From NCBI RefSeq assembly GCF_024700885.2, contig NZ_CP117016.1: 64,000 nucleotides of DNA. One strand, written 5' to 3'. The position numbers and the translations under genes were made by a program. The stretch is from Escherichia coli. Lineage in GTDB: Bacteria > Pseudomonadota > Gammaproteobacteria > Enterobacterales > Enterobacteriaceae. This document shows positions 9,460 through 52,652 of this stretch, in pieces. The first letter of the stretch is position 1. The number at the start of each line of letters is the position of its first letter. The notes below the pieces were generated by a model that ran no database searches, had not been told where the DNA came from, and saw nothing but the letters and a program-made list of their open reading frames with translations.

Positions 9460-10392
9460 ATGATCATCGTTACCGGCGGCGCGGGCTTTATCGGCAGCAA
9501 CATCGTTAAAGCCCTGAATGACAAAGGCATCACCGATATTCTGGTGGTGGATAACCTGAAAGACGGCACCAAGTTTGTGAACCTGGTGGATCTGGATATC
9601 GCGGACTATATGGATAAGGAAGACTTCCTGATCCAGATTATGGCTGGCGAAGAGTTCGGCGATGTCGAAGCGATTTTCCACGAAGGTGCGTGCTCTTCCA
9701 CCACCGAGTGGGACGGCAAGTATATGATGGATAACAACTATCAATACTCCAAAGAGCTGCTGCACTACTGCCTGGAGCGCGAAATCCCGTTCCTGTACGC
9801 TTCTTCTGCAGCCACTTACGGCGGTCGCACCTCCGACTTTATTGAATCCCGCGAATATGAAAAACCGTTGAATGTCTACGGTTACTCAAAATTCCTGTTT
9901 GATGAATATGTTCGCCAAATCCTGCCGGAAGCCAACTCGCAGATTGTTGGCTTCCGCTATTTCAACGTTTATGGACCGCGTGAAGGCCATAAAGGCAGCA
10001 TGGCGAGCGTCGCTTTCCATCTCAACACTCAGCTTAACAACGGTGAATCACCGAAGCTGTTCGAAGGTAGCGAGAACTTCAAACGTGACTTCGTCTATGT
10101 GGGCGACGTGGCAGATGTAAACCTGTGGTTCCTGGAAAATGGCGTTTCCGGCATCTTCAACCTCGGTACTGGTCGTGCGGAATCCTTCCAGGCGGTAGCC
10201 GATGCAACGCTTGCTTATCACAAGAAAGGCCAGATCGAATACATTCCGTTCCCGGATAAACTGAAAGGCCGCTATCAGGCGTTCACGCAGGCAGATCTGA
10301 CGAATCTGCGCGCGGCGGGTTATGACAAACCGTTCAAAACCGTTGCCGAAGGCGTAACGGAATATATGGCCTGGCTGAATCGCGACGCATAA
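9460..10392 (+). CDS. hldD: ADP-L-glycero-D-manno-heptose 6-epimerase
   Basis: 310-aa ORF, N-terminal [11 protein letters not shown]-binding motif; matches HldD/RfaD. Confidence 0.95.
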
Positions 10393-12416: not shown

Positions 12417-12443
12417 AGTAAGTGGGCATTATACCCACTTACT
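12417..12443. terminator. perfect inverted repeat (agtaagtggg / cccacttact, 7-nt loop) between convergent waaC and the ligase gene
   Basis: Palindrome read directly from sequence in the 47-bp convergent intergenic gap; A/T-rich flanks on both sides. Confidence 0.5.
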
Positions 12444-12458
12444 TAGTCAACGCTTTTA

Positions 12459-13712
12459 TTATTGTGGTTCATTTTTACTCAAAAACGATATAGACAGGAA
12501 GAGGCACACAATCCACGATGCCGGTATTGGTTTAGCATGTGTAATGACATCACTAATGCCAAATAACATAATAGAAGCAGGGAAAACCAAGAGTATATAT
12601 TTTTTCTCTCGTATACAGTAATAGATCATTGCAACATAGAACATAATAAGAACAAGAAGACCAATTTTTCCTTTCGTGGAAAGAGATTCCACAATTTCGT
12701 TATGCATATGTACATCAAGGAATAATAAAGCTCCACTATAAATATTATTTTCTGCACTTAATGCTTTTATCTTTTCAGCACGCTGCTCAAGAGATTGCCA
12801 ATTAAAACCATCAGGACTTCCTTTAATTCCTGCATTAACCATTGCAAAACGTGCTCCGACCGAGGATTGACTGTTATTTTTTGTAGCATATGAAATAACA
12901 TCAGCTTTTAATGAATTAATTCGCCTATCAATTTCCTTATTAAATATCAAACCACAAGCAAGTAGCAATATAAAAACACCACTCAATCCTTTAAATAAAA
13001 ACACTTTTTGATCACGATGCTGAAGAAATAATATGACCATAATCATAAGTGGGAATGTGAAAATTGCCGCACGCGTTCCTGTCATCATTACTGCTGCAAA
13101 GCTTAAAGCAAAGTTAGCATAAAATAGAAACCATTTATATTTCGATTGCATTTTTATGAATACAATTGAAGAATATAAAGTTGTAAATGTAATCACATAA
13201 GCCGCAATAGTCGCTGCCCCCATCTGACCAATATTCCCATTCATGGCGGAGAGGGGAATGCGGTCTGCATGCAAATATATCCCTTGATAATATGCTCTAC
13301 ATAGCATGATTATTTGAACTAAGATAGCTGAAATAAAATGTAGTTTTTCATTTTGCCTGAATTTATTTTTACTTAGTAATAAAAATGTCAACGAGCTAAA
13401 TACTAATAGTTTTCCAGACTCAAGGTAGCCTCGATAAGCATTTCTATATACTACATCTTCTGTTTTATAAAATTCATACCATATAAGGTTCATTGCACCC
13501 AAAAGAAGTAAACCAAGAATTAATATAATGACATTTTTATTATAATTGTGCTTTTTATTTACAATTAATAAGAAAAGAGAAAATGCACCTGTCGCATTAA
13601 TTATTTTAGTGGTGATATTAAGATCAATTGGCACAAACAACAAACCGATTAAATACAATAAAAAAATAAAATTACAGCTATTATTTCGAAATTGCTCAAT
13701 TTTTACTTCCAC
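12459..13712 (-). CDS. waaL: O-antigen ligase (WaaL family), polytopic membrane protein
   Basis: 417-aa very hydrophobic AT-rich ORF at the distal end of the minus-strand outer-core operon; the position WaaL occupies in R1/R3/R4 core types. Confidence 0.8.
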   Translation of the reverse strand: MEVKIEQFRNNSCNFIFLLYLIGLLFVPIDLNITTKIINATGAFSLFLLIVNKKHNYNKNVIILILGLLLLGAMNLIWYEFYKTEDVVYRNAYRGYLESGKLLVFSSLTFLLLSKNKFRQNEKLHFISAILVQIIMLCRAYYQGIYLHADRIPLSAMNGNIGQMGAATIAAYVITFTTLYSSIVFIKMQSKYKWFLFYANFALSFAAVMMTGTRAAIFTFPLMIMVILFLQHRDQKVFLFKGLSGVFILLLACGLIFNKEIDRRINSLKADVISYATKNNSQSSVGARFAMVNAGIKGSPDGFNWQSLEQRAEKIKALSAENNIYSGALLFLDVHMHNEIVESLSTKGKIGLLVLIMFYVAMIYYCIREKKYILLVFPASIMLFGISDVITHAKPIPASWIVCLFLSISFLSKNEPQ

Positions 13713-13746
13713 GTTAATATCTCACAACAAATTGAAATTAACAATC

Positions 13747-14520
13747 TCATTTCAAAAGAGAAAAAAAAGCCACCTTTATCCAGGAGCGTATAAACTTCAT
13801 TCTTTTCTGAAGCCTTGTTCTAGGTTGTTTTTTTTCCGATGTTAATAGCCTTTCACTTTCAAGATGACTATTAAACTCATTTAAAATAGGATGTAATATT
13901 ATTTCGTCTAAATAAAACTCTTTTATAATATTATGTTGATGCATTAACTTCCAGCTATCAGCTCGATAGGTGCCATAATCCTTTGTCAATTTGAGCAACT
14001 TTTGTGCCATATCTTTATTCATCAAATATGAACATGTACGACGAATTTTATTTTTATTGAAATTAACACGCCGAAAAGTACAAGTACTTACCTTAACTTT
14101 ACTAAAAAGGCTTTGCCCCAATACCGGATAATCATGTAATCCTTTCTGTCCTCCAAGCAAATACAAATTATTATGTTTTAACTTGTCTTTTTCAGGAAGA
14201 TTAAAATATTGCAGAAATTTTTTAAATTTCTCATTGACGATAACATCATCCTCGAGAATGACTGCCCATTCTATATTTTTATCTATCATATCCTTATATA
14301 TAAGCTGATGACTTAATGTACAAGCAATTTCTCCATCAGTCATTTCTGCGCCGACACCACTTAATCTCATTTTATCAATAATTTCTTTATTTTGAGGGTC
14401 TTTAGCATCTATGGCATCAAAAAAATCAAAATTAATATTTAATCGATGAAAAACATCATTTATTTTATTTCTTCGCTCAATATCTCTTTTAAGTGAGACA
14501 ATATAAATGGGCAGGTTCAT
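13747..14520 (-). CDS. outer-core beta-glycosyltransferase, GT25 (Lic2A/LgtB-like) family; WaaV/WaaX position
   Basis: 257-aa ORF beginning IYIVSLKRDIERR, typical GT25 N-terminus; cannot decide WaaV (R1) versus WaaX (R4) without alignment. Confidence 0.7.
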   Translation of the reverse strand: MNLPIYIVSLKRDIERRNKINDVFHRLNINFDFFDAIDAKDPQNKEIIDKMRLSGVGAEMTDGEIACTLSHQLIYKDMIDKNIEWAVILEDDVIVNEKFKKFLQYFNLPEKDKLKHNNLYLLGGQKGLHDYPVLGQSLFSKVKVSTCTFRRVNFNKNKIRRTCSYLMNKDMAQKLLKLTKDYGTYRADSWKLMHQHNIIKEFYLDEIILHPILNEFNSHLESERLLTSEKKQPRTRLQKRMKFIRSWIKVAFFSLLK

Positions 14521-14551
14521 TAAAAAATCTCTGGGTGATTAATCTTAATAA

Positions 14552-15580
14552 TTATTTGGAAAAATGCTTACGCGCTATTTTCTTACTATAATAGAGCATG
14601 AAATAGTAAAATGAAGATGCAATATTACCATTTCTTTTCAAATGTCCGGATTTCACTTGATACTGCTTTTCATTCGTGGCTGGAATAAACGCCACATCAT
14701 TCCAGCAAGAAGCCTGATAAGCCTCATTAAAATACTTCTGGCAGGGATAATTCGTCCAGTCGTTCCAGGGCTTCGTTACGCCAACATAATGAATCAGCTT
14801 AGTATCATCGGTAATGGTCTTTTTATAATCTTCATCGCTTTTATTTTTTAACTCATAGTCAATGCCATAAAAGCAATCATAATCGCCGCTAATAAAAATA
14901 CAATGACCAAAGAACAGAATATTTAAAATATCCTGATCAAGGCATTTATACTTCGTATGCTGCGGGTCACTTGCCAGCATAGCAATGGCTTTATTCATAA
15001 AATCATTTTTCGCCCATGCTTCAAGCTGCAGATATACTACACCGGCGTTGAAATAATTACCTGGAAGTCCCTCTATAGCCAGACGCTTCGCTGGTTTTTC
15101 CTGCATAAAAGGCACATCTTTAATAACAGCTGCGAACTTATCGCCATCAAAATTAATATCAAGCAATCCAGCTAATGAGCCTTTACAGATGACATCAGCA
15201 TCGATATATAACAGATTTTCAATAACTTCACTCAGATACTGGAACGCAACTAAACGGAAGAATGTTGCATAAGACCACTGTTTCAGGCTGGGGAAGATAT
15301 CAATAAAGGCACTGGAGACTTTATAAATTCTTACTTCAACGTTAGCATTTTTGCTAGTAAAAGCGTTAACACGTTGTAGATAATCTTCATCAATGTAGTC
15401 GGTAAAGAGATGAAACTTAACCGCAAGGTCCGGGTTATGCATAATAACTGATTGCATAGATACTGCCGCACCAAATAAAAAGTTGCGGTCAATACCGTAA
15501 GCGATATTTAACACACGATCGGTGTTAGTAATTTTCCCAGAGACAGTGACTTCAGTAATACTCTCAGCTAATAAATCCAT
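14552..15580 (-). CDS. outer-core alpha-glycosyltransferase, GT8 family (WaaW-like position)
   Basis: 342-aa ORF with GT8 signature (YGID...NAGVVY...DQD); paralogous to the two GT8 ORFs at 16308-18336. Confidence 0.75.
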   Translation of the reverse strand: MDLLAESITEVTVSGKITNTDRVLNIAYGIDRNFLFGAAVSMQSVIMHNPDLAVKFHLFTDYIDEDYLQRVNAFTSKNANVEVRIYKVSSAFIDIFPSLKQWSYATFFRLVAFQYLSEVIENLLYIDADVICKGSLAGLLDINFDGDKFAAVIKDVPFMQEKPAKRLAIEGLPGNYFNAGVVYLQLEAWAKNDFMNKAIAMLASDPQHTKYKCLDQDILNILFFGHCIFISGDYDCFYGIDYELKNKSDEDYKKTITDDTKLIHYVGVTKPWNDWTNYPCQKYFNEAYQASCWNDVAFIPATNEKQYQVKSGHLKRNGNIASSFYYFMLYYSKKIARKHFSK

Positions 15581-15605
15581 GTTGGTTCCGTTTTGACTGT
15601 GTGGT

Positions 15606-16298
15606 TTACGCTTTGCCTTTTAATTTTTTAATAAATTTGCGTAGTTTGGTTCTGTAGATTACTGAATAGTAGCCATAATCTTTTATTTCGTTGGCAATAC
15701 CCAGGTGACGTTCCATGGCCAGACGATCACGAGCTTTACGCTCTGCCGTACAGCTTTTACCGGATAGGTCAATTATCCTGACACCATCTTTACTAACGAT
15801 AAAGTTACCCCGGTGTGGGTCGCCCGATAGCATATTTAAGGCATGCAATTTTTCCATTGAAGCCTTAATTTCTGCTTTAACATTTTCTGGAATAATCGGC
15901 ATATCATTGAGCTCTACGCCCTCGACATACTCGATAAGCATGATAAAAACACTGGCATAGTTGAAAAATTTACGCTCAGCCAGAAAATAAAAATCATTAG
16001 GAAAAGTAAGACCTGCACTTCTGACACGATCGGTTTCAACGATCAAATTCTGATAGTAGTCACCTTTTACAAAAGATTTAAAAAAACGTTCATTCCTTTT
16101 CGTTTTCGGAGCAAAGACTTTAAAAACATAGCGACCATATTTCGTATCAATCAACGATACTTTGGTATCATCAATATTACGTAATACTTTTACTGTTTTA
16201 AAATTATAGGCCAGTATTTCATCAAAGATTTCTTTATATTTATTATCATTATCTTTGTAATAAAATGAGAAGCCGCGATAACGTATACTTGTAATCAT
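15606..16298 (-). CDS. waaY: LPS core heptose II kinase
   Basis: 230-aa kinase-like ORF in the position WaaY holds in the core operon. Confidence 0.8.
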   Translation of the reverse strand: MITSIRYRGFSFYYKDNDNKYKEIFDEILAYNFKTVKVLRNIDDTKVSLIDTKYGRYVFKVFAPKTKRNERFFKSFVKGDYYQNLIVETDRVRSAGLTFPNDFYFLAERKFFNYASVFIMLIEYVEGVELNDMPIIPENVKAEIKASMEKLHALNMLSGDPHRGNFIVSKDGVRIIDLSGKSCTAERKARDRLAMERHLGIANEIKDYGYYSVIYRTKLRKFIKKLKGKA

Positions 16299-16307
16299 AA
16301 GAGTAAT

Positions 16308-17303
16308 TTATTTCTTAAGCTTGTACTTAATTAATGAAGTTATGCCTTTTATATACTCACCATGGGCAAACAGATGCTTATATTGTTTCTGCATTTCTGC
16401 AACAGTCCGCGCCTCTTTAAGAGGATATTTCTTCCAGGGAGATTGTTCACGCGCGATATTAAAGTATGATGCAGACGGATATCCAGCCCAGCTATGCCAT
16501 GGTTTAGTTATCCCTGTATAGTGAATCAACACTGTTTTATCGGTAATGGTTTGCTGATACTTTCGATGACTACGATCATAAAGTTCGTTTTTCAGGGTAT
16601 AAATAGTATCAAAATCCTTCGCAAGGTAGATATTATTCATATTAAATGCGATATTCAACGCATCCTGATCTAAATATTTAAGAGAGCCATATTTAGTTTC
16701 CCCTCGTAAAAGTTTGAGTAAATACGGTGTCAAATTTGCTTCATGCCATTTTTTAAGATTGACATAGATAACGCCTGCATTGAAATAACGTCCATTCATT
16801 TCGGGAATGTTGAGGCGTTTTGCACATGCCGCCTGAGTACTATCATTGTCAGGAATGACCGCAGCAAACTCATCTTTAAATATAATTTCTGTGAGAGGTT
16901 TCAGGCTTCCTTTACAAACAACATCGGCATCCAGATACAGCAGTGTGGAAATACTTTCACTCAGATATTCAAAAGACAATACCCTGAAGTATGTCGCGTA
17001 CGACCAAAACTGTGACGTCGGCAGATCAGCAAAGTATTTGGGGTCAATTAAATATACAATAATTGAGGTATTAAATTGTTTTGCTGTTTCATTAAATGAC
17101 TTTAAATAATCATCATCCACATAATCAGTGAAAACATGAAAGACAAAATTAATATCTGAATTATTAATCAAAACGGAAGAAATTGAAACGCCAGCACCAT
17201 ACAAAAAATTCTTATCGATACCGTAGGAAACATTTAGCTCTGGGGCGTTTTCTTTTTTATTATCTGCTAAATACGAAAACCGTTCTTTTATAAATTCATT
17301 CAT
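16308..17303 (-). CDS. outer-core alpha-glycosyltransferase, GT8 family (WaaT-like position)
   Basis: 331-aa GT8 ORF; paralog of neighbours. Confidence 0.75.
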   Translation of the reverse strand: MNEFIKERFSYLADNKKENAPELNVSYGIDKNFLYGAGVSISSVLINNSDINFVFHVFTDYVDDDYLKSFNETAKQFNTSIIVYLIDPKYFADLPTSQFWSYATYFRVLSFEYLSESISTLLYLDADVVCKGSLKPLTEIIFKDEFAAVIPDNDSTQAACAKRLNIPEMNGRYFNAGVIYVNLKKWHEANLTPYLLKLLRGETKYGSLKYLDQDALNIAFNMNNIYLAKDFDTIYTLKNELYDRSHRKYQQTITDKTVLIHYTGITKPWHSWAGYPSASYFNIAREQSPWKKYPLKEARTVAEMQKQYKHLFAHGEYIKGITSLIKYKLKK

Positions 17304-17319
17304 TTAACTTTTCTCAATT

Positions 17320-18336
17320 TCATTTTATTATCTTTAAATAAAAATAATAAATATAATTCATTATCCCGTTAATTGGTTTATTTTGTTTAAAATTATGCTT
17401 GGCGCAATAACGAGCATAGTTTGAGTTAACTGGCCGCATTAACGGTTCATTTTTCCAGGGCGATGCTTCTTTGGCTTTGATAAAAGGTTGCGCACTTGGA
17501 TAACCGGCCCAGTAATGCCAGGGTTTTGTCGGGCCGACATAATGAATTAATACGGTTTCATCATTAATTGGACAAACAAATGATTTTTTTAATTCATAAT
17601 TTAAACTAAATTGCGTATTGTATTTAGCATCAATGAATTTAACTTTCCCTAACAGGATAAGATTAAGGATATCTTGATCCATATAGGTTAAACGGGAAAC
17701 GATGGCTTTATCAGCAAGCATCGACATCGCTTTAGCAGAAACGGACTCCTGCGCCCACGCTAGTGTATTAATTAACAGGACACCTGAATTAAAGTAACCC
17801 TTTTCAAGTTCATTACACTGCAGACTTTGACCCCGTAACGACCACCAGTTAGCATCGCGTTCAGTAACAACAGCAGCAACGTTATTGGCAAGATCCATTG
17901 TTATCAGCGGCTTTAAGTTTCCCTGACAGGCGATATCAGCATCCAGGTAAAGGATCTTATCTTGTTGATCAATAAAGTAATCTGCAATTACAAAACGGAA
18001 ATACATGGCAATAGACCAATTTTTGGTCGTCGGTAATGCCTTAAGCCGTTCACAATTTACTAGATGGATCTGGATACAGGTACGATAGCTTTTCGCCAAT
18101 TGGGCTAAACGCTGGATATCGGCTTCAGGGATAGCATCAATAAAAACGTGGAAAACAAAACTCACGTCGTTGTTATGTAACAAAACTGACGTGATTGAAA
18201 CACCACAACCAAAAAGAAAGTTTTTATCAATGCCATAAGAAACATGGAATGATGATGCCACTGACGCCGCTGGCCTTTCATCGAAGATGATTGTCTTATT
18301 GATCATCTCTTGTGGATTAAAATAGTGGGCACTCAT
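17320..18336 (-). CDS. outer-core alpha-1,3-glucosyltransferase, GT8 family (WaaO-like position)
   Basis: 338-aa GT8 ORF directly downstream of waaP. Confidence 0.75.
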   Translation of the reverse strand: MSAHYFNPQEMINKTIIFDERPAASVASSFHVSYGIDKNFLFGCGVSITSVLLHNNDVSFVFHVFIDAIPEADIQRLAQLAKSYRTCIQIHLVNCERLKALPTTKNWSIAMYFRFVIADYFIDQQDKILYLDADIACQGNLKPLITMDLANNVAAVVTERDANWWSLRGQSLQCNELEKGYFNSGVLLINTLAWAQESVSAKAMSMLADKAIVSRLTYMDQDILNLILLGKVKFIDAKYNTQFSLNYELKKSFVCPINDETVLIHYVGPTKPWHYWAGYPSAQPFIKAKEASPWKNEPLMRPVNSNYARYCAKHNFKQNKPINGIMNYIYYFYLKIIK

Positions 18337-18351
18337 ATTTCTCTCCGGAAA

Positions 18352-19149
18352 TTACAACGATTTTCTAATCGTTCTTTCCCTGATTTTTGTGGCTTTTGCT
18401 TCTGCTTGCGACAGCAGCCCTTGTTCCTGCTTGAGAATGTCTTTAAGCGGGGCGACAAAATACTCTTTCATAAACCGCCAGATATCCCGCTGAGTCAGGC
18501 TAATATTCATCGAAGAAAAATAAAGCCCTATAAGATCTTTATCGCGCCAACGACGTGGAACGCGCGTGCGAAGCTGCGCCCGGTGCAGGTCAATTACCGA
18601 AATTTTTAACTCCTCTTCCTTACCGGAAAAAGGCAAGTGCAGCAGGAAATGACAGATATAACAGTCACGGTGGTTAATGCCCGCAGCATGCATATCGCGC
18701 ACCATCGTCGCGACACGCTTAATAAGCATACGCTTTACGCGAACATCTGGAGGGTTAGTCGCCCAGTCAGCACAGTAATCTTCCAGACTTATGGTTGGTG
18801 TCAGATCTTCGGTAATAATAAATGAAGTTCTGGTAAGCGGATTCATGCCTTTTTCGCCAAATGCCACCCCATACATAGTATCAACGCCGACATCCCGCAG
18901 TCGATGAATCGCATTCCATTCGCGGTCTGCGCCTAATACTGGCATCCGCAATGAGAGTAAATTTTTGATTATCTCTTTCAGGGTCGTGCCGCGATGCCAT
19001 TTGAGAAAATAGCTTTTGCCCGCCATTTCAAAGCGCAGAGTGCGGCGAGTTTCCAGTTCACGAAAAACCTCACCCTGCAAGGTTTTAACTTCCTCAAAAG
19101 GATCTTTACCACGCCATAACGTGGCAAACGGCTCTTTAAGTTCAACCAT
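18352..19149 (-). CDS. waaP: LPS core heptose I kinase
   Basis: 265-aa product from [21 protein letters not shown]; track ORF is 3 codons longer. Confidence 0.92.
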
Positions 19150-20266
19150 CCAGACCACCCGTTATGATATCCGCCGCTTTTTCTGGCAGACTGTATAAAT
19201 CTTGTGTATCAGCATAATGTCGCGCATTTTCCGCCCAGGCCTGGCGCAATGAAGATTGCGTTAACGCTTTGCGTAAAATCTCATTCAATGTTTCCTGGCG
19301 GAATGGCTCAGCAATAGCCTCGCCGCAATTGGCGTCAACAATATAATGCGCATAGCCACAAACGGCTGTCGTTAGTACCGGTAATCCTGCAGTAATCGCT
19401 TCCAGCAGCACAATTCCCGCCGCTTCCTGGTAGGCAGGATGCAGTAATAAATCCGCCGCCGCCATTAATTCCGAGACATCGTTGCGCCCCGAGAAGAAGT
19501 GAACATTACTGCGCACGCCGCGTTTTTCTGCCAGCGCCTCAAATTTTCGCGGTTTATCCTGCCCAACAACATATAGCAATGTGTTGTGGCGCAGCGAATC
19601 CGGTAACGAAGCAAGTGCTTCAATGGAACGATCGACACCTTTACGCGTGAAGTCTGAACCGACCTGCAACAATAAATATTGTTGTTCGGTTATTCCATTC
19701 TTCTTACGGAAGATTTCACGGCTATTAGCTGGCTGCTGGCTATATTTACGATCAGGATAAATCCCCGGTGGCAGAATATGAAAACGCTCCGCTTCAGTCT
19801 GATAATGTTTCTGGAAATCGGCGATTTGCTTATCTGTCAGCATCAGCAGCTGTGTCGGCTTGCCCTGTTCGAAGGTTGCCCGCTCAAAGGCGGCATAATG
19901 GCGATAACGTGACGTCAAGCGATAGAAAAAGCCTTTTTCCTGCGCTACTTTCTCGGCATAACAAACATCAGCGGCATAATAAACGTCCAGCCCCGGCATT
20001 TTGTTGAATCCAACGACTTTATCGACGGGATGTTCGCGTAAATGTTTTTGCACCCAGGCAAAATACTCCGCATTGCGCCCGTGATTGGTATGCGATTTAA
20101 CCGGCACTTTGATCAGTTCAAATACATCAGGGCATTCGCCTTCCCACGACTGGGTATAAACCCGAACATGATGACCTCGGGCGGCGACTGTCTGAGCAAT
20201 ACGCATAAAATCGCGCTGCAAACCGCCAAAGGGAAAATATTTATATAAACAAAAAGCAACGATCAT
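19142..20266 (-). CDS. waaG: LPS glucosyltransferase I (GT4)
   Basis: 374-aa ORF matching WaaG; overlaps the waaP start. Confidence 0.93.
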
Positions 20267-21321
20267 AACGACGTACCTGTCGTGGAGGAGGGCAGTAATT
20301 TATCGACAGCAGCAATGACATCTGCCGCCGGAATAACCGAAAGATACATCTCATTTCGGTCACGCTGATCGCGCGTTGGCATTTCCCGGTAATCTCCCGC
20401 CCAGAATTGAATCATGTTATTTGACCAGGGACGCCAGAAAATATGGTCTGTCGCACCAAACAGCGATATCAGCGGCGTATTAACTGCAGCGGCAATATGC
20501 GCCGGTGCGGAATCAACGCCAATAAACAGCTGCGCATGATCGATTAACGCACCAAGTTCCGGGAAGGTCACCTTTCCGGCCAGCGCCGTTACTGGTGGCG
20601 TCTGGCATCCCTGGGCAATTTCATTGACGCAGGCCAGATCGTCTTTATCTGGGCCGGACGTCAGAACGACTTCATAACCACGCGCATGTAAGGCATCAAT
20701 CACAGCGGAAAACTTGGCGTTGTCCCAGCATTTGAAGATTTGCCGCGCCGTAGGTTGGATAACCACATAATTTTGTCCAACACCAGCGTGATCAAGTTCG
20801 CGACGCATACGTTTCCAACTTGCAGGCGGGTAACTCATGGTTGTCTGCTTCACCAACGAATCAAGTCCCAATGGTGTCAGCACGGATAAGTTACTTTCCA
20901 CCACATTTCCACCCTGCAACGGCACCAAATGGGTGAAACTTTTACGCCAAAAAGCAGACTGCCGATGATGATAATCCTGGGAAATTTTCACACGGGCATT
21001 TAATAAGCGAACCAGTATAGCAACCATCCATTGATCGGTAAGATTAACGATAAGGTCATACTTATTGGCACGTAATACCTTGATGAGATGAAAAAAGTTG
21101 GAAATTTTTTCTGCGGCTTTTGCTTTTTTATTTTTTATGCCGTAGAGCGCGTTAATCTCTGGATTTTCAGACAGGATCGGGATGGTGTCCTGATAAAGCA
21201 GCACATCGATTTTTGCGTCAGGGTAATTTTTTTTCAGCGAACTAATGACGGGAGTAGTTAATAACATATCCCCATGAAAACGCATCTTAATGAGCAAAAT
21301 TCTTCGAAATGGCTTATCCAC
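20263..21321 (-). CDS. waaQ: LPS heptosyltransferase III
   Basis: GT9-family ORF, first gene of the minus-strand core operon; true start may be an internal Met (MRFHGDML). Confidence 0.88.
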   Translation of the reverse strand: MDKPFRRILLIKMRFHGDMLLTTPVISSLKKNYPDAKIDVLLYQDTIPILSENPEINALYGIKNKKAKAAEKISNFFHLIKVLRANKYDLIVNLTDQWMVAILVRLLNARVKISQDYHHRQSAFWRKSFTHLVPLQGGNVVESNLSVLTPLGLDSLVKQTTMSYPPASWKRMRRELDHAGVGQNYVVIQPTARQIFKCWDNAKFSAVIDALHARGYEVVLTSGPDKDDLACVNEIAQGCQTPPVTALAGKVTFPELGALIDHAQLFIGVDSAPAHIAAAVNTPLISLFGATDHIFWRPWSNNMIQFWAGDYREMPTRDQRDRNEMYLSVIPAADVIAAVDKLLPSSTTGTSL

Positions 21322-21370
21322 AAGTAACTCTTTTTGTTGAGATTATCCGATTAAGGTGAAGCAGAAAAAG

Positions 21371-21382
21371 CACGCTACCGCC
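21371..21382 (-). promoter_or_regulatory. ops element (5'-GGCGGTAGCGTG-3') in the waaQ operon leader; RfaH-dependent antitermination site within JUMPstart
   Basis: Exact 12-mer read on the minus strand about 50 nt upstream of waaQ; ops consensus recalled from literature. Confidence 0.85.
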
Positions 21383-21733
21383 CCAGGCTCAACAGCTACC
21401 TGAATACTGATACCGCACTGATATTGACGCGCTAGTGTATCACTTCTTTCGCGGCAATCCGACCCGAATGATTTTTAAGCACATTGTTGATTTTCAATAA
21501 AGAAATCAATCAAATAAAATCATTAGCAACCATATTCTTTCACTGTTGCTCTGCGATTCCTTCCTGCACGTACTGCAGAAATCAATGAATCGCATAAAAA
21601 TACAAAAAAAGTATAGATGTTCAGCAAGAATTGGCGGGTAAATTGCTATTTAAGTCAAAAACGGGAAAAGTAATGGTAAAGCCACAGCTAAATACATAGA
21701 ATCCCCAGCACATCCATAAGTCAGCTATTTACT

Positions 21734-23498
<1,765 letters not shown>

Positions 23499-30734: not shown

Positions 30735-30894
30735 CTCGTAACGCCAATTCTTCCTTTTCAGCCTTCACAAATGCCGCCCACTCAAACAGAGCGGCATTTT
30801 TCCTCCCCGCAACATTCAATTCTGTTTTGCGTGCCTGCTCCAGATTTTGCGATGTTTTTTTGCCCAGCGCAGTGAGAAGGTGAGATACTCACAA

Positions 30895-30910
30895 CTGTAT
30901 ATAAACACAG
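30895..30910. promoter_or_regulatory. LexA (SOS) box CTGTATATAAACACAG upstream of the dinD remnant
   Basis: CTGT-N8-ACAG palindrome read from sequence about 45 bp upstream of the dinD start codon. Confidence 0.8.
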
Positions 30911-30955
30911 TTGTAAACTTACTTTCCTTGCAATCGATATCACATGGAGTGGGCA

Positions 30956-31233
30956 ATGAACGAACATCATCAACCTTTTGAAGAAATACGGCATTATGGC
31001 ACTGAAGGGCAAGAATTTTGGTCAGCGAGAGAATTGGCACCGTTACTGGATTATCGGGACTGGCGCAATTTTCAAAAGGTACTGGCCCGCGCGACTCAAG
31101 CGTGCGAAGCCAGTAATCAAGCTGCATCTGACCATTTCGTTGAAACCACCAAAATGGTTGTATTAAGTTGCCGACCCCGCAGGTCAGCATCAAGCAATTG
31201 GAAAACAGTGTAAAAATTACAGAGAAGAAATAG
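30956..31233 (+). pseudogene. dinD: dinD (DNA damage-inducible protein D) remnant with large internal deletion and frameshift
   Basis: First ~70 codons match DinD (MNEHHQPFEEIRHYGTEGQEFWSAREL...), then the frame is lost; a different frame at 31160-31233 encodes the DinD C-terminus (LPTPQVSIKQLENSVKITEKK*). About 280 bp retained versus ~825 bp for the intact gene. Confidence 0.8.
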
Positions 31234-31524
31234 CAGAAACGAAAAACTCTTTTTGTTGATTGAGATACCCGATGCGTAAGCCAAAGTCCAGGTGCGGTGA
31301 ACACAATGGCTAAACATTGCACCTTTCTTTTCCACCCCTCAATTTTAACCTATTTTTTCTTATGCATTTTCTCAGACAAGAAGTCAGAAGAATGCATCTA
31401 CGCTACAGAAAATAGCGATTTCACATAACTACAAGTTATCAATTTCCTCTCACCTTAAAAAATCTCAATCGTGACAATACGCACAAATCGCTACCCTGCC
31501 AGACAGATTTTTAGGGAGAGAACC

Positions 31525-33913
<2,389 letters not shown>

Positions 33914-39944: not shown

Positions 39945-40117
39945 GGCGGCGGTGAGAAGACCGCCGCTTCAGGTTACCCTACCTTCCTGCCGGATGTGCT
40001 TCGTCCTACAAAAACATATAAACTCAATAAATTGTGAATCAATGCGCAGCCTTGATAAGCGAAGCGTATCAGGCATTTGTCTTCGTTGCGGCGGCACTTC
40101 TACCGCCGCTTCATCGG
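39945..40117. repeat. REP/BIME-like palindromic units in the recG-gltS convergent gap, including a GCGGCGGT/ACCGCCGC terminator-like hairpin at 39945-39967
   Basis: Several GC-rich imperfect palindromes (gccggatg..., tgataagcgaagcgtatcaggca, gcggcggcacttctaccgccgc) read from sequence. Confidence 0.55.
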
Positions 40118-48878: not shown

Positions 48879-48973
48879 GGAAGATCGTCGTCTCCGGTGA
48901 GGCGGCTGGACTTCAAATCCAGTTGGGGCCGCCAGCGGTCCCGGGCAGGTTCGACTCCTGTGATCTTCCGCCA
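48879..48973 (+). tRNA. selC: tRNA-Sec (selenocysteine, UCA anticodon), 95 nt including CCA
   Basis: Sequence GGAAGATCGTCGTCTCCGGTGAGGCGGCTGGACTTCAAATCCAGTTGGGGCCGCCAGCGGTCCCGGGCAGGTTCGACTCCTGTGATCTTCCGCCA read directly; long extra arm and 8-bp acceptor stem typical of tRNA-Sec. Confidence 0.97.
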
Positions 48974-49611
48974 AAATGCCTCTTCATACGTTCTCCAACC
49001 CCTTGTAATACTGTCAATCCAGAGATTTTCTATCTGCTCAATATTCAATCGGCTTCAGGAATACCTGATCAAAGGATTTGTGATGGACGATGAGCGACAG
49101 AAGAATCCGCCTGTCGGTTCTTCTGTCCTCGAACGCATCCGCGATATTCGCGCCAGCATGCGCCGTGTTTATTTGCAGGTGATTTGCCCCCTGCTGACTC
49201 TCAGCCAACTGTATCGCCATTAAGGTGAAGATGTTGTTTTACACGCCCCAGAACACCCTTTTTTTATACGATGATTCTATTCCTTTAACCGCTGGCGAAA
49301 AAAACTGACCTATAAACTTCACCAATAATCAGACTGCCATCAAGATTAATTTGTTCATTTAATATATCAAATAAACTTGTTTTATTTTTACTATCAAAAA
49401 TAGCTCATTGCCTTACTATAATTAATATATAAATTCGGTAATTAATTCTTAACATGCTTTTGCTAATAATCTCAATTGCTGGCCCTATAATATTGCGCTA
49501 GCATTGCTTTCTGGTTGTATCAGCGATACTCAAAAATTCTTAATATAATACTCATTCGACTGGTACTTATTTGTAACTCAGTTATATTTTGTCGCCCGGT
49601 GATTCAGAAGA

Positions 49612-50906: not shown

Positions 50907-51830
50907 ATGGGTTCCACCAGAAAGGGGATGCTGAACGTTCTGATTGCCGCCGTGTTGTGGGGAAGTTCAGGGGTCTGCGCGCAATACATCATGGAGCAAA
51001 GCCAGATGTCGTCGCAGTTTTTGACTATGACGCGTTTGATATTCGCCGGTTTGATTCTGCTGACGCTGTCATTTGTTCATGGCGATAAAATCTTTTCTAT
51101 TATTAACAATCACAAAGATGCCATTAGTCTGCTGATTTTTTCCGTGGTTGGCGCGCTAACCGTACAGCTCACTTTTTTGCTAACCATTGAAAAATCGAAT
51201 GCTGCCACGGCAACGGTGCTGCAATTCCTCTCACCGACGATTATCGTCGCCTGGTTCTCACTGGTGCGTAAATCTCGCCCGGGCATTCTGGTTTTCTGCG
51301 CTATTTTGACATCGCTGATCGGGACTTTTTTATTGGTGACACACGGTAATCCGACGTCATTATCGATCTCTCCTGCCGCGTTATTCTGGGGCATTGCCTC
51401 GGCATTTGCTGCTGCATTCTATACCACCTATCCCTCAACGCTGATTGCCCGCTATGGCACGTTACCGGTCGTCGGCTGGAGTATGCTGATCGGTGGTCTG
51501 ATCCTGCTGCCCTTCTATGCCGGGCAAGGAACAAACTTCGTGGTTAATGGCAGCCTGATTCTGGCGTTTTTCTATCTGGTGGTAATCGGAACTTCGCTAA
51601 CCTTTAGTCTATATCTGAAAGGCGCACAGCTCATTGGCGGTCCAAAAGCCAGCATTCTGAGCTGTGCAGAACCATTAAGTAGCGCGCTGCTCTCTTTGCT
51701 GTTGCTGGGGATCACGTTCACATTGCCGGACTGGCTGGGAACGCTGCTGATTCTGTCATCGGTGATTTTGATTTCAATGGATTCTCGTCGCCGCGCCAGA
51801 AAAATAAATCGTCCGGCGCGGCATGAGTGA
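50907..51830 (+). CDS. yicL: EamA/DMT-family transporter YicL
   Basis: 307-aa ORF with 10 predicted TM segments. Confidence 0.9.
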
Positions 51831-51833
51831 GAA

Positions 51834-52652
51834 TTACCAGCCAGGCACCGCGCCACCGTTAAAGATGGTTTCTGCCGCTTTAGCGACTTCGGGCGATTGA
51901 TAAGATTGCAGAAATTCCTTCACGTTTTCTGCATTCTTATTATCTTCCCGTGCCACCAAAATATTCACATACGGCGAATTTTTATCTTCAATAAATACGC
52001 TGTCGTGCACTGGAGAAAGCCCGGTCTGCTGAATGTAAGTGGTGCTGATAATTGCCACATCAACTTTGGGATCATCCAGTACGCGCGGGAGCTGCGCCCC
52101 CTCGAGTTCCATAATCTGCAAATGACGAGGATTATCGGTTATATCCAGCGCGGTAGGTAATAACCCTTTTCCCTCTTTCAGAGTAATTAGCTTCTCTTTT
52201 TGCAACAGTAAAAGCGCGCGACCAAGGTTGGTTGGGTCGTTGGGGATCGCCACTGTCGCGCCTTCTTTTATTTGCGCCACAGTTTTGATTTTTTTGGAAT
52301 AACCCGCCATGGGGAAGACAAACGTATTTCCCACCGCTACCAGTTTATAACCATGCGCCTGATTATCTTGTTCAAGAAAGGGGCGATGCTGGAAGACGTT
52401 CGCATCAAGCTCGCCATGATTTGTCGCATCGTTCGGTAACAACGAACCGCTAAATCCTACCAATTCAACATCGAGGCCATATTTCTCTTTTGCCACCTTT
52501 TTAGCGACTTCCGCGACATCTTGTTCTGCGCCATTAATAACGCCCACTTTAATGTGCTTTTCATCGCTGCTGCTCTGGTCGCAACCTGCCAGCAGAATTC
52601 CTGCCAGTAATAATGCGGCCCCCGCCCGTAGATGATGTGTTGTCAGTTTCAC
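51834..52652 (-). CDS. nlpA: lipoprotein 28 (NlpA/MetQ family)
   Basis: 272-aa ORF with lipobox (LLAGC) matching NlpA. Confidence 0.93.
   Translation of the reverse strand: MKLTTHHLRAGAALLLAGILLAGCDQSSSDEKHIKVGVINGAEQDVAEVAKKVAKEKYGLDVELVGFSGSLLPNDATNHGELDANVFQHRPFLEQDNQAHGYKLVAVGNTFVFPMAGYSKKIKTVAQIKEGATVAIPNDPTNLGRALLLLQKEKLITLKEGKGLLPTALDITDNPRHLQIMELEGAQLPRVLDDPKVDVAIISTTYIQQTGLSPVHDSVFIEDKNSPYVNILVAREDNKNAENVKEFLQSYQSPEVAKAAETIFNGGAVPGW

What the first reader, a model, noticed from the sequence alone, without database searches (positions are those of the whole stretch)
21322..21733. waaQ-waaA divergent control region with exact ops element
The 12-mer GGCGGTAGCGTG lies on the minus strand in the waaQ leader, predicting RfaH-dependent antitermination of the 9-gene outer-core operon. 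A quick look at the island promoter regions showed no second ops copy, so RfaH control of the translocon operon is not supported.
Basis: partly seen in the sequence, partly recalled or inferred. Interest (0 to 1): 0.2.

Follow-up and report, generated by a model that had tools for sequence, protein, structure and literature searches.

The report
Known RfaH ops site before waaQ
This is the well-known RfaH loading signal (ops, inside a JUMPstart element and the RirA small-RNA region) in the leader of the E. coli LPS-core operon, and the neighbouring type III secretion island has no such signal, so the finding is correct but ordinary.

Summary
Confirmed, and already known. The exact 12-mer GGCGGTAGCGTG lies at 21382->21371 on the minus strand, the waaQ sense (non-template) strand. 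Its 5' end is 61 nt upstream of the waaQ GTG start. About 0.006 such matches are expected by chance. It is the 3' end of a full-length Rfam JUMPstart match (55 bits, gathering score 35) and lies inside the homologue of the K-12 sRNA RirA (window 21427->21356).

The leader is 100% identical to that of E. coli CFT073. Published ChIP-seq there shows RfaH loading at this ops and staying on RNA polymerase across a 9-gene rfaQ unit. rfaH is intact in the matching genome. The operon here has nine genes, waaQGPOTYWXL, is R4 core type by in-silico typing, and is AT-rich distally (34.6% GC).

The exhaustive search found four more GGCGGTAG 8-mers: hldD, coaBC, antisense yicG, and the gltS 3' hairpin. All lack T11. 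None is in a leader or in the island.

The eicA-eipBCD-eilA-iatC island has no ops or JUMPstart, including its part outside the window.

One unexplained point remains. In waaQ leaders of many genera, ops forms the 3' arm of a conserved long hairpin followed by a T-run. This may be an attenuator that produces RirA.

The parts
21371..21382 (-). ops element GGCGGTAGCGTG, an exact match to the 12-nt consensus. It is on the non-template strand of the waaQ transcription unit. Its 5' end is 61 nt upstream of the GTG start, and 49 nt separate its 3' end from that start.
   Evidence: The geometry is the same as CFT073 rfaQ (ops at -61), which is RfaH-bound by ChIP-seq.
21371..21409 (-). JUMPstart element: a 5-bp apical hairpin CAGG(U)...(G)CCUG followed by GGGGCGGUAGCGUG.
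   Evidence: Rfam RF01707, 55.2 bits against gathering score 35, model positions 1-38 of 38. The hairpin pair at A2 columns 37/53 covaries (AU 14, GU 4, UA 4, GC 2).
21356..21427 (-). Homologue of the K-12 sRNA RirA (b4760, 73 nt); here 72 nt. [quoted passage not shown]
   Evidence: K-12 annotation mapped by alignment. Properties of RirA from PMC5736990, PMC6358824 and PMC8745692.
21434..21442 (-). Putative extended -10 promoter element TGaTACACT, ending 7 nt upstream of the inferred start at 21427.
   Evidence: Read from the sequence. Invariant between the two E. coli alleles. TACACT or a near variant is conserved upstream of waaQ leaders in many genera. Inferred, not mapped here.
21406..21419 (-). 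'Anti-ops' arm, AGUGCGgUAUCaGU, predicted to pair with the ops RNA plus the following CU.
   Evidence: Minimum-free-energy fold. 92.7% of cells are paired in 24 waaQ leaders, against at most 51% when partners are slid. Not recovered by RNAalifold.
21365..21369 (-). T-run (U5 in the RNA) beginning 1 nt after ops.
   Evidence: At least 5 T in the 8 nt after ops in 19 of 23 waaQ leaders, against 11 of 94 other JUMPstart loci.
12459..21321 (-). Nine-gene core-oligosaccharide operon waaQ-waaG-waaP-waaO-waaT-waaY-waaW-waaX-waaL (R4 core type). Gene gaps range from -8 to 34 nt. The distal genes are 34.6% GC.
12417..12443 (-). Terminator-like 12-bp hairpin in the 46-bp convergent gap between waaL and waaC; the likely nominal end of the operon.
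   Evidence: a consensus scan only. In CFT073, RfaH-bound polymerase reads through into antisense rfaC.
21734..23011 (+). waaA (Kdo transferase), the divergent neighbour. Two blocks upstream of it, 21646-21733 and 21583-21613, are conserved between the two alleles and presumably hold its promoter and leader.
   Evidence: The waaA promoter was not mapped.
10191..10202 (+). ops-like GGCGGTAGCCGA inside hldD, on the sense strand. Lacks T11 and G12. Judged non-functional.
   Evidence: A GGCGGTAG copy is at the same site in K-12 (there GGCGGTAGCTGA), where RfaH is reported at only two operons (PMC9765446).
26449..26460 (+). ops-like GGCGGTAGCGCA inside coaBC, on the sense strand. Lacks T11 and G12. 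Judged non-functional.
31726..31737 (-). ops-like GGCGGTAGCGAC, antisense inside yicG. Judged non-functional.
40096..40107 (-). GGCGGTAGAAGT just 3' of the gltS stop codon. It forms the 5' arm of a GGCGG...CCGCC hairpin. Not in a leader.

Best explanation
The waaQ-proximal part of the intergenic region is the canonical RfaH-dependent leader of the E. coli LPS core operon.

Transcription starts at about 21427, from a conserved extended -10 element. RNA polymerase transcribes the JUMPstart element and pauses at ops (U11, about +56). There the non-template DNA strand exposes GGCGGTAGCGTG as a small hairpin. Autoinhibited RfaH binds this hairpin and the polymerase, opens, and stays bound for the rest of the transcription unit.

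RfaH-modified polymerase excludes NusG and so Rho. It resists pausing inside the AT-rich, H-NS-prone distal genes. It also recruits the ribosome to waaQ, which has a GTG start and only a weak Shine-Dalgarno sequence. As a result all nine genes, waaQGPOTYWXL, are expressed.

The same leader RNA, as the about 72-nt RirA, can bind RfaH and damp the system.

The eicA-eipBCD-eilA-iatC island has no ops and is not an RfaH target; its known activator is EilA.

Shown here: the sequence, strand, position and conservation of the element, its identity to experimentally characterised leaders, and the presence of rfaH. Inferred from published work on identical or near-identical sequences: pausing, RfaH loading, antitermination and RirA activity.
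For: - The exact ops is on the sense strand, with 0.006 expected by chance.
- A full-length JUMPstart match is above the Rfam gathering score.
- Between the two deeply diverged E. coli alleles of this intergenic region (at least 99% identity in 4,431 records, 60-80% in 946), the block from TAAAAATCAT through ops to the T-run is nearly invariant, while the middle of the region is scrambled.
- An ops 41-66 nt upstream of a WaaQ homologue was found in 23 loci from about 10 genera.
- K-12 annotates rirA at the homologous position.
- The window intergenic region is 409/412 identical to CFT073, and the leader is 100% identical. In CFT073, RfaH ChIP-seq shows a 19-fold peak at 4229289-4239472 over nine genes starting at this ops, with ops at -61 from rfaQ, and RNA polymerase travelling ratios fall in the rfaH deletion (PMC9765446).
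- rfaH is intact in the matching genome.
- The operon is compact and its distal genes are 28-39% GC.
- The ops mechanism and the per-base requirements come from PMC5995543.
- For the island, there is no ops with at most 1 mismatch in a leader and no JUMPstart match at E <= 10. EilA control is reported in PMC4210603.
Against: - There are no expression or binding data for this strain.
- The transcription start is inferred. The K-12 rirA 5' end maps to 21427, but the RNA-seq-based unit prediction in CFT073 puts the start only 27 nt upstream of ops, at about 21409.
- The role of the JUMPstart RNA hairpin itself is not established.
- The absence of a recognisable ops does not formally exclude indirect RfaH effects on the island, for example through LPS or envelope stress.
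Confidence: 0.93

Rival explanations
1. Attenuator layer; additional to the best explanation, not exclusive of it. In waaQ leaders the ops RNA is the 3' arm of a long hairpin, with the JUMPstart hairpin at its apex, followed by a U-tract. This would be an intrinsic-terminator-like attenuator a few nucleotides after the RfaH loading site. Polymerases that fail to load RfaH would terminate there and release RirA. RfaH-loaded polymerases would read through.
For: - The minimum-free-energy fold of the RirA homologue is this hairpin followed by CUUUUU, and 20 of 23 waaQ leaders from other genera fold the same way.
- 92.7% of cells are paired, against at most 51% in slid controls. All one-sided changes in the 5' arm remain compatible with the invariant ops, and two outer pairs show double changes.
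- The T-run is specific to waaQ leaders: 19/23 against 11/94.
- RirA shares the waaQ start and ends about 15 nt after ops.
- RfaH is reported to reduce termination at some factor-independent signals (abstract of PMC2871177).
Against: - The folding energy is not better than shuffles (z = -0.66).
- RNAalifold recovers only the apical hairpin.
- The simple terminator scan finds nothing in the leader.
- The 3' arm is invariant for another reason, because it is ops, so true covariation can hardly be seen.
- The sequences are phylogenetically related.
- The annotated RirA 3' end lies a few nucleotides beyond where an intrinsic terminator would release.
- The primary RirA paper could not be read.
Confidence: 0.3
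2. The 12-mer is a chance match with no function.
For: Short GC-rich motifs do occur by chance. Four other GGCGGTAG 8-mers in the window look like chance matches.
Against: - Only 0.006 exact 12-mers are expected.
- The match is embedded in a full JUMPstart element.
- It is invariant across two diverged alleles and about 10 genera at the same distance from waaQ.
- An identical leader is RfaH-bound in CFT073.
Confidence: 0.01
3. The intragenic sense-strand 8-mers in hldD (10191) and coaBC (26449) are additional RfaH loading sites. This would extend RfaH control to waaF-waaC or to dut-slmA.
For: Both have the RfaH-contacting core G4-G8 intact and lie on the non-template strand. hldD-waaFC is an LPS operon.
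Against: - Both lack T11. T11G is among the strongest in vivo defects (PMC5995543).
- GGCGGTAG copies sit at the same two sites in K-12, where RfaH is reported at only two operons.
- In CFT073, every intragenic ops variant, even those with 11 of 12 matches on the non-template strand, lacked RfaH signal. The authors suggest exclusion by NusG on coupled transcription-translation complexes.
Confidence: 0.02
4. The island is under direct RfaH control through a non-canonical or distant loading site.
For: - The island is AT-rich (eicA-eipD 38.7% GC, eilA 35.3% GC).
- It contains a 12.85-kb gene, iatC. This is the kind of DNA that RfaH typically serves.
- A one-mismatch site, GGCGGTATTGTG, lies on the sense strand inside iatC.
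- Cryptic RfaH targets, among them two loci that encode type VI secretion proteins, were found in CFT073 only after H-NS/StpA removal.
Against: - The iatC site changes G8; the G8C substitution abolished recruitment in vitro. It is also 2.4 kb inside a translated gene.
- No leader of eicA, eilA or iatC has a site with at most 2 mismatches in the right orientation.
- There is no JUMPstart match at E <= 10.
- All eight validated CFT073 targets have a leader ops with G1-T11 intact.
Confidence: 0.03

Closest known systems
ops/JUMPstart leader of the E. coli rfaQ (waaQ) operon in CFT073 and K-12
   Same: The 12-mer, the strand, the JUMPstart context and the distance to the start codon (-61) are all the same. 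The leader is 100% identical to CFT073. It is homologous to K-12, with 6 differences across the 73-nt RirA region. The first seven operon genes are 92-99.7% identical to CFT073 at protein level.
   Different: The last two genes differ. Here they are waaX (GT25) plus an R4-type waaL; CFT073 has waaV (GT2) plus an R1-type waaL (16% and 35% identity). K-12 has a different outer-core gene set (waaSBOJYZU), places waaL in the hldD operon, and carries the minor allele of the intergenic region.
RirA sRNA (K-12 b4760)
   Same: It occupies the homologous position, contains JUMPstart and ops, and begins at the homologous 5' end, which lies downstream of a conserved -10 element.
   Different: It is 72 rather than 73 nt, with one T fewer, and has five substitutions, all at positions predicted to be unpaired or in the 3' tail. 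Its expression and RfaH binding were not tested for this allele.
JUMPstart/ops leaders of other RfaH operons (rfb/wzx, wza-wca, kps, hly, tra)
   Same: They share the ops core and the apical hairpin (Rfam RF01707). ops lies in an untranslated leader on the non-template strand.
   Different: In the waaQ type, the 5' 'CAGUGC' box is displaced 11 nt upstream, and a T-run follows ops; the others mostly continue with yCUG.
Other specialised NusG paralogues with leader-encoded recruitment signals (LoaP, UpxY, TaA; from general knowledge, not tested here)
   Same: The logic is the same: an operon-specific processive antiterminator recruited in the 5' leader of long polysaccharide or secondary-metabolite operons.
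   Different: They use different proteins and recruitment signals and are not relevant to E. coli waaQ.

Membership tests
ops element (RfaH recruitment site) | 12-nt consensus GGCGGTAGnnTG with G4-G8 and T11 intact | tested here: met
   Exact GGCGGTAGCGTG at 21382->21371. Base requirements are from PMC5995543.
ops element (RfaH recruitment site) | Lies on the non-template (sense) strand of the regulated transcription unit | tested here: met
   The motif is on the minus strand, and waaQ...waaL are all on the minus strand.
ops element (RfaH recruitment site) | Located in the transcribed, untranslated leader between the promoter and the first gene | tested here: met
   It is 46-57 nt downstream of the position homologous to the K-12 rirA/waaQ 5' end, and 49 nt upstream of the GTG start. 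The CFT073 start prediction is also upstream of ops. The start site is inferred by homology, not mapped in this strain.
ops element (RfaH recruitment site) | An rfaH gene is present in the genome | tested here: met
   rfaH is intact between tatD and ubiD in strain AST240, whose chromosome matches window 40000-64000 at 100.0% in BLAST and differs at 2 of 12,691 bases over 51310-64000. It lies outside the window itself.
ops element (RfaH recruitment site) | RNA polymerase pauses at U11, RfaH binds, and distal gene expression depends on rfaH | not testable with these tools
   Shown experimentally for the identical leader in CFT073 (PMC9765446) and for consensus ops in vitro (PMC5995543).
JUMPstart element (Rfam RF01707) | Covariance-model score at or above the gathering threshold, with the hairpin followed by GGGGCGGUAGCGUG | tested here: met
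   55.2 bits against 35, model positions 1-38 of 38. The hairpin pair covaries across 24 leaders.
RirA sRNA | Sequence homology to K-12 b4760 at the syntenic position, in the 5' UTR of waaQ and containing ops | tested here: met
   Alignment of K-12 rirA to window 21427->21356 shows 6 differences in 73 nt.
RirA sRNA | [quoted passage not shown] | not testable with these tools
   Reported for K-12 in reviews that cite Klein et al. 2016. The primary paper is not held.
Intrinsic (factor-independent) terminator or attenuator, considered for the leader hairpin plus T-run | A stable GC-rich hairpin immediately followed by a U-tract, with release of the transcript there | tested here: inconclusive
   The hairpin and U5 are predicted and conserved. 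However, the energy z-score is -0.66, the simple scan is negative, RNAalifold does not recover the outer helix, and transcript release was not tested.
RfaH regulon membership of the eip/eilA/iatC island | An ops (at most 1 mismatch, T11 intact) on the sense strand in an operon leader | tested here: not met
   No such site occurs in the island, including the part beyond the window. There is no JUMPstart match at E <= 10.

The most novel reading that the evidence does not exclude
The waaQ-type leader may be more than an RfaH loading pad. It may be an RfaH-sensing attenuator. The ops RNA pairs with a conserved upstream 'anti-ops' arm to form a long hairpin followed by a U-tract, and this architecture is specific to waaQ leaders across Enterobacterales. 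Polymerases that leave ops without RfaH would terminate within about 10-15 nt and release RirA, an RNA reported to inhibit RfaH. RfaH-loaded polymerases would read through. This would make RirA output an inverse read-out of RfaH loading, and it would create a feedback loop on all RfaH operons.
Probability: 0.25. Interest if true: 0.4.

Novelty: already known. Interest (0 to 1): 0.1.

Why it matters
The result adds little. It confirms that this strain uses the textbook RfaH/ops/JUMPstart arrangement for its R4 LPS core operon. It also confirms that the adjacent ETT2-related translocon/adhesin island is outside the RfaH regulon by sequence criteria, so the island's expression should be studied through EilA and H-NS rather than RfaH. 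The only part with some forward value is the conserved hairpin plus T-run around ops in waaQ leaders. If it is an attenuator, it would explain how RirA is made and would link RfaH availability to RirA output.

Tried and rejected
- The primary RirA paper (Klein et al. 2016; PMC5087721 and its DOI) is not held. RirA boundaries therefore come from the K-12 annotation and from reviews.
- A search for 3'-end mapping of RirA (Term-seq) found nothing.
- The consensus promoter/terminator scan of 21200-21850 gave two promoter-like hits, no more than chance, and no terminator. The TTGAAA-18-AATCAT hit was not adopted as the main promoter. Its -35 is not conserved in the other allele, and a start there would put ops beyond a 73-nt RirA.
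- RNA folding of the leader is not more stable than shuffles, and RNAalifold does not recover the outer helix. The attenuator idea is therefore kept only as a hypothesis.
- My first guess of an R1 core type, based on gene order and product names, was wrong. In-silico PCR and comparison with CFT073 show R4.
- NCBIfam has no model for the GT25 protein or for the ligase.
- The CFT073 FIMO catalogue lists only single-mismatch ops variants. The two-mismatch 8-mers seen here are not individually covered; their dismissal rests on the missing T11, on the K-12 data and on the general intragenic result.
- A possible pairing between the 5' CAGUGCAC box of generic JUMPstart elements and a yCUG after ops was noticed by eye. 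It was not pursued, because the 5' box stays conserved where the CUG is absent.

Full report
**Context**

The window is E. coli chromosome running from gpsA through the waa (LPS core) cluster. It continues past tRNA-Sec (selC, 48879-48969) into the eicA-eipB-eipC-eipD-eilA-iatC island. This island is related to the second E. coli type III secretion system (ETT2). The window matches O166:H15-type strains such as AST240 at essentially 100% identity. The flagged interval 21322-21733 is exactly the 412-bp gap between the divergent genes waaQ (minus strand, GTG at 21321) and waaA (plus strand, ATG at 21734).

**Observation**

- GGCGGTAGCGTG occurs once, at 21382->21371 on the minus strand. This is the sense (non-template) strand for waaQ.
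- From base composition, 0.006 exact 12-mers are expected, and 0.105 matches to the consensus GGCGGTAGnnTG.
- Rfam independently finds a full-length JUMPstart element at 21409->21371, at 55.2 bits against a gathering score of 35. It is the only one in the window, and ops is its 3' end.

GGCGGTAG occurs five times, against 1.24 expected; 2 of 100 shuffles reach five. The four extra copies are as follows.

| Position | Sequence | Context |
|---|---|---|
| 10191 (+) | GGCGGTAGCCGA | inside hldD, sense strand |
| 26449 (+) | GGCGGTAGCGCA | inside coaBC, sense strand |
| 31737 (-) | GGCGGTAGCGAC | antisense inside yicG |
| 40107 (-) | GGCGGTAGAAGT | directly after the gltS stop, 5' arm of a GGCGG...CCGCC hairpin |

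- None has T at position 11. T11G is among the most damaging substitutions in vivo (PMC5995543).
- GGCGGTAG copies are present at the same four sites in K-12. There RfaH is reported at only two operons (PMC9765446).
- In CFT073, every intragenic ops variant lacked RfaH ChIP signal, including 11-of-12 matches on the non-template strand.
- The three sites with one mismatch to the consensus (35200, 37209, 44662) change A7, T6 or G8. By the gene coordinates they fall inside spoT, inside trmH and antisense within yicH.

**What the leader contains**

K-12 annotates the 73-nt sRNA rirA between waaQ and waaA. It maps to window 21427->21356, where it is 72 nt long. Reviews state three things about RirA:
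- It contains JUMPstart and ops.

The inferred start at 21427 lies 7 nt downstream of an extended -10 element, TGaTACACT (21442->21434).

E. coli carries two deeply diverged alleles of this intergenic region. The major allele is the one in this window, at 99% identity or more in 4,431 records. The minor allele, at 60-80% identity in 946 records, includes K-12. Aligning the two gives a natural footprint:
- The centre of the region is scrambled.
- The waaA-proximal blocks (21646-21733 and 21583-21613) are conserved.
- The waaQ-proximal block, from TAAAAATCAT through the -10, JUMPstart and ops to the T-run, is nearly invariant.

**Related loci elsewhere**

A pattern scan of one genome per species returned 120 JUMPstart/ops loci.
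- 23 of them lie 41-66 nt upstream of a WaaQ homologue. They come from Escherichia, Citrobacter, Pluralibacter, Enterobacter, Shimwellia, Cedecea, Kosakonia, Pectobacterium and Symbiopectobacterium.
- Most keep the TACACT -10 element.
- The protein alignments begin at residue 1 of the GTG-start ORF, and the NCBIfam RfaQ model matches positions 1-351 of 352. Both support GTG at 21321 over the shorter ATG start annotated in K-12, which corresponds to window 21285.

**Transfer of experimental evidence**

- The window's intergenic region is 409/412 identical to CFT073. The three differences (21662, 21541, 21464) all lie upstream of the leader, so the leader itself is identical.
[quoted passage not shown] The ops is listed at -61 from rfaQ, the same distance as here.
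- RNA polymerase travelling ratios drop in the rfaH deletion. The operon is coated by H-NS/StpA.
- rfaH is intact in the matching genome.

**The operon**

- Nine genes follow, with gaps of -8 to 34 nt.
- Published typing primers give the 380-bp R4 product, from R4-F at 14332 and R1R4-R at 14711 (primers from PMC13293308).
- Compared with CFT073 (R1 core), seven proteins are 92-99.7% identical. The last two differ: 16% identity for the GT25 waaX against the GT2 waaV, and 35% for waaL.
- The operon is therefore waaQGPOTYWXL, an R4-type core operon, not strictly an 'outer-core' operon.
- Its distal part is 28-39% GC against about 52% in the flanks. This is the typical substrate for H-NS and Rho that RfaH counteracts.
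- A 12-bp terminator-like hairpin sits in the waaL/waaC convergent gap.

**The island**

- The promoter of iatC lies outside the window, so I fetched the rest of the island from AST240.
- Scanning yicS through nepI on both strands found no exact ops. The best site is GGCGGTATTGTG (G8 changed), 2.4 kb inside iatC. No leader has a site with at most 2 mismatches in the right orientation.
- Rfam at E <= 10 finds no JUMPstart-like match.
- The island is AT-rich: eicA-eipD is 38.7% GC and eilA is 35.3% GC.
- Its known activator is EilA (PMC4210603).
The usual caveat applies: absence of a motif does not exclude indirect effects.

**One feature not explained by the standard account**

- The minimum-free-energy fold of the RirA homologue is a long hairpin followed by CUUUUU. 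The ops RNA plus the following CU pairs with an upstream arm (21419->21406), and the JUMPstart hairpin sits at the apex.
- On 24 waaQ leaders this structure is 92.7% paired, against at most 51% when partners are slid. Every one-sided change in the 5' arm remains compatible with the invariant ops.
- 20 of 23 leaders from other genera fold the same way. A T-run follows ops in 19 of 23 waaQ leaders but in only 11 of 94 other JUMPstart loci.
- Against it: the folding energy is unremarkable (z = -0.66), RNAalifold recovers only the apical hairpin, the simple terminator scan is negative, and the sequences are related to each other.
- I keep it as a hypothesis: an RfaH-sensitive attenuator that produces RirA. 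I could not read the primary RirA paper. [quoted passage not shown]

**Verdict**

Interest is low.

Noticed in passing
window 21322-21733; L004, L005, L007: The waaQ-waaA intergenic region exists in E. coli as two deeply diverged alleles. One is at least 99% identical to the window in 4,431 records. The other is 60-80% identical in 946 records and includes K-12. The central roughly 170 bp is scrambled between them, while the leader and the waaA-proximal blocks are conserved.
   Followed up: partly
L006 730-1427 (E. coli SW07163): An IS1 element is inserted in the waaQ-waaA intergenic region of this strain, upstream of the conserved waaQ promoter and leader block, which is retained intact.
   Followed up: no
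window 21285-21321: The waaQ start codon is annotated inconsistently. PGAP uses GTG at 21321 (352 aa). The K-12 annotated start corresponds to the ATG at 21285. The NCBIfam RfaQ profile (positions 1-351 of 352) and cross-genus conservation of the N-terminus favour GTG. Only a weak Shine-Dalgarno sequence (AAGAG) precedes it.
   Followed up: partly
window 12417-12443 and the waaC/waaL gap: A 12-bp hairpin lies in the 46-bp convergent gap between waaL and waaC. In CFT073, RfaH-bound polymerase is reported to read through into antisense rfaC, so this may not stop RfaH-modified polymerase.
   Followed up: no
window 49053-49181: A RhuM-family pseudogene fragment sits directly after tRNA-Sec (selC) and looks like the remnant of an element once integrated at selC. 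The eip/eilA/iatC island is not at selC itself. It lies about 4 kb further on, between yicS and nepI.
   Followed up: no
window 30735-31524: The yicC-yicG gap is 790 bp here, against 1,335 bp in K-12, where it holds dinD. A near-identical strain annotates only BRO-family and DnaD-like pseudogene fragments there, so dinD appears to be truncated or lost.
   Followed up: no
window 60490-64000 and L003 9181-22032: iatC is a single 12.85-kb gene that runs off the window end. It contains a 12-mer, GGCGGGAGTCAG, that recurs at spacings of multiples of 291 nt, reflecting tandem repeats.
   Followed up: no
window 53964-54146: A 60-aa hypothetical ORF is annotated between the chaperone gene eicA and eipB. 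No function was assigned and it was not examined.
   Followed up: no
window 40096-40113: The GGCGGTAG copy after the gltS stop codon is the 5' arm of a GGCGG-N7-(G)CCGCC hairpin in the recG/gltS convergent gap. It is probably a terminator stem rather than anything related to RfaH.
   Followed up: partly
L008-L127: Many non-waaQ JUMPstart loci continue with yCUG directly after ops. This could pair with the conserved 5' CAG of the CAGUGCAC box. The Rfam model stops at the last G of ops and would not capture such a pairing. No clean covariation was seen by eye.
   Followed up: no
CFT073 data against window 21409/21427: The RNA-seq-based unit start in CFT073 is 27 nt upstream of ops, which corresponds to window position 21409. 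The K-12 rirA 5' end maps to 21427. The true transcription start for this allele is unresolved.
   Followed up: no
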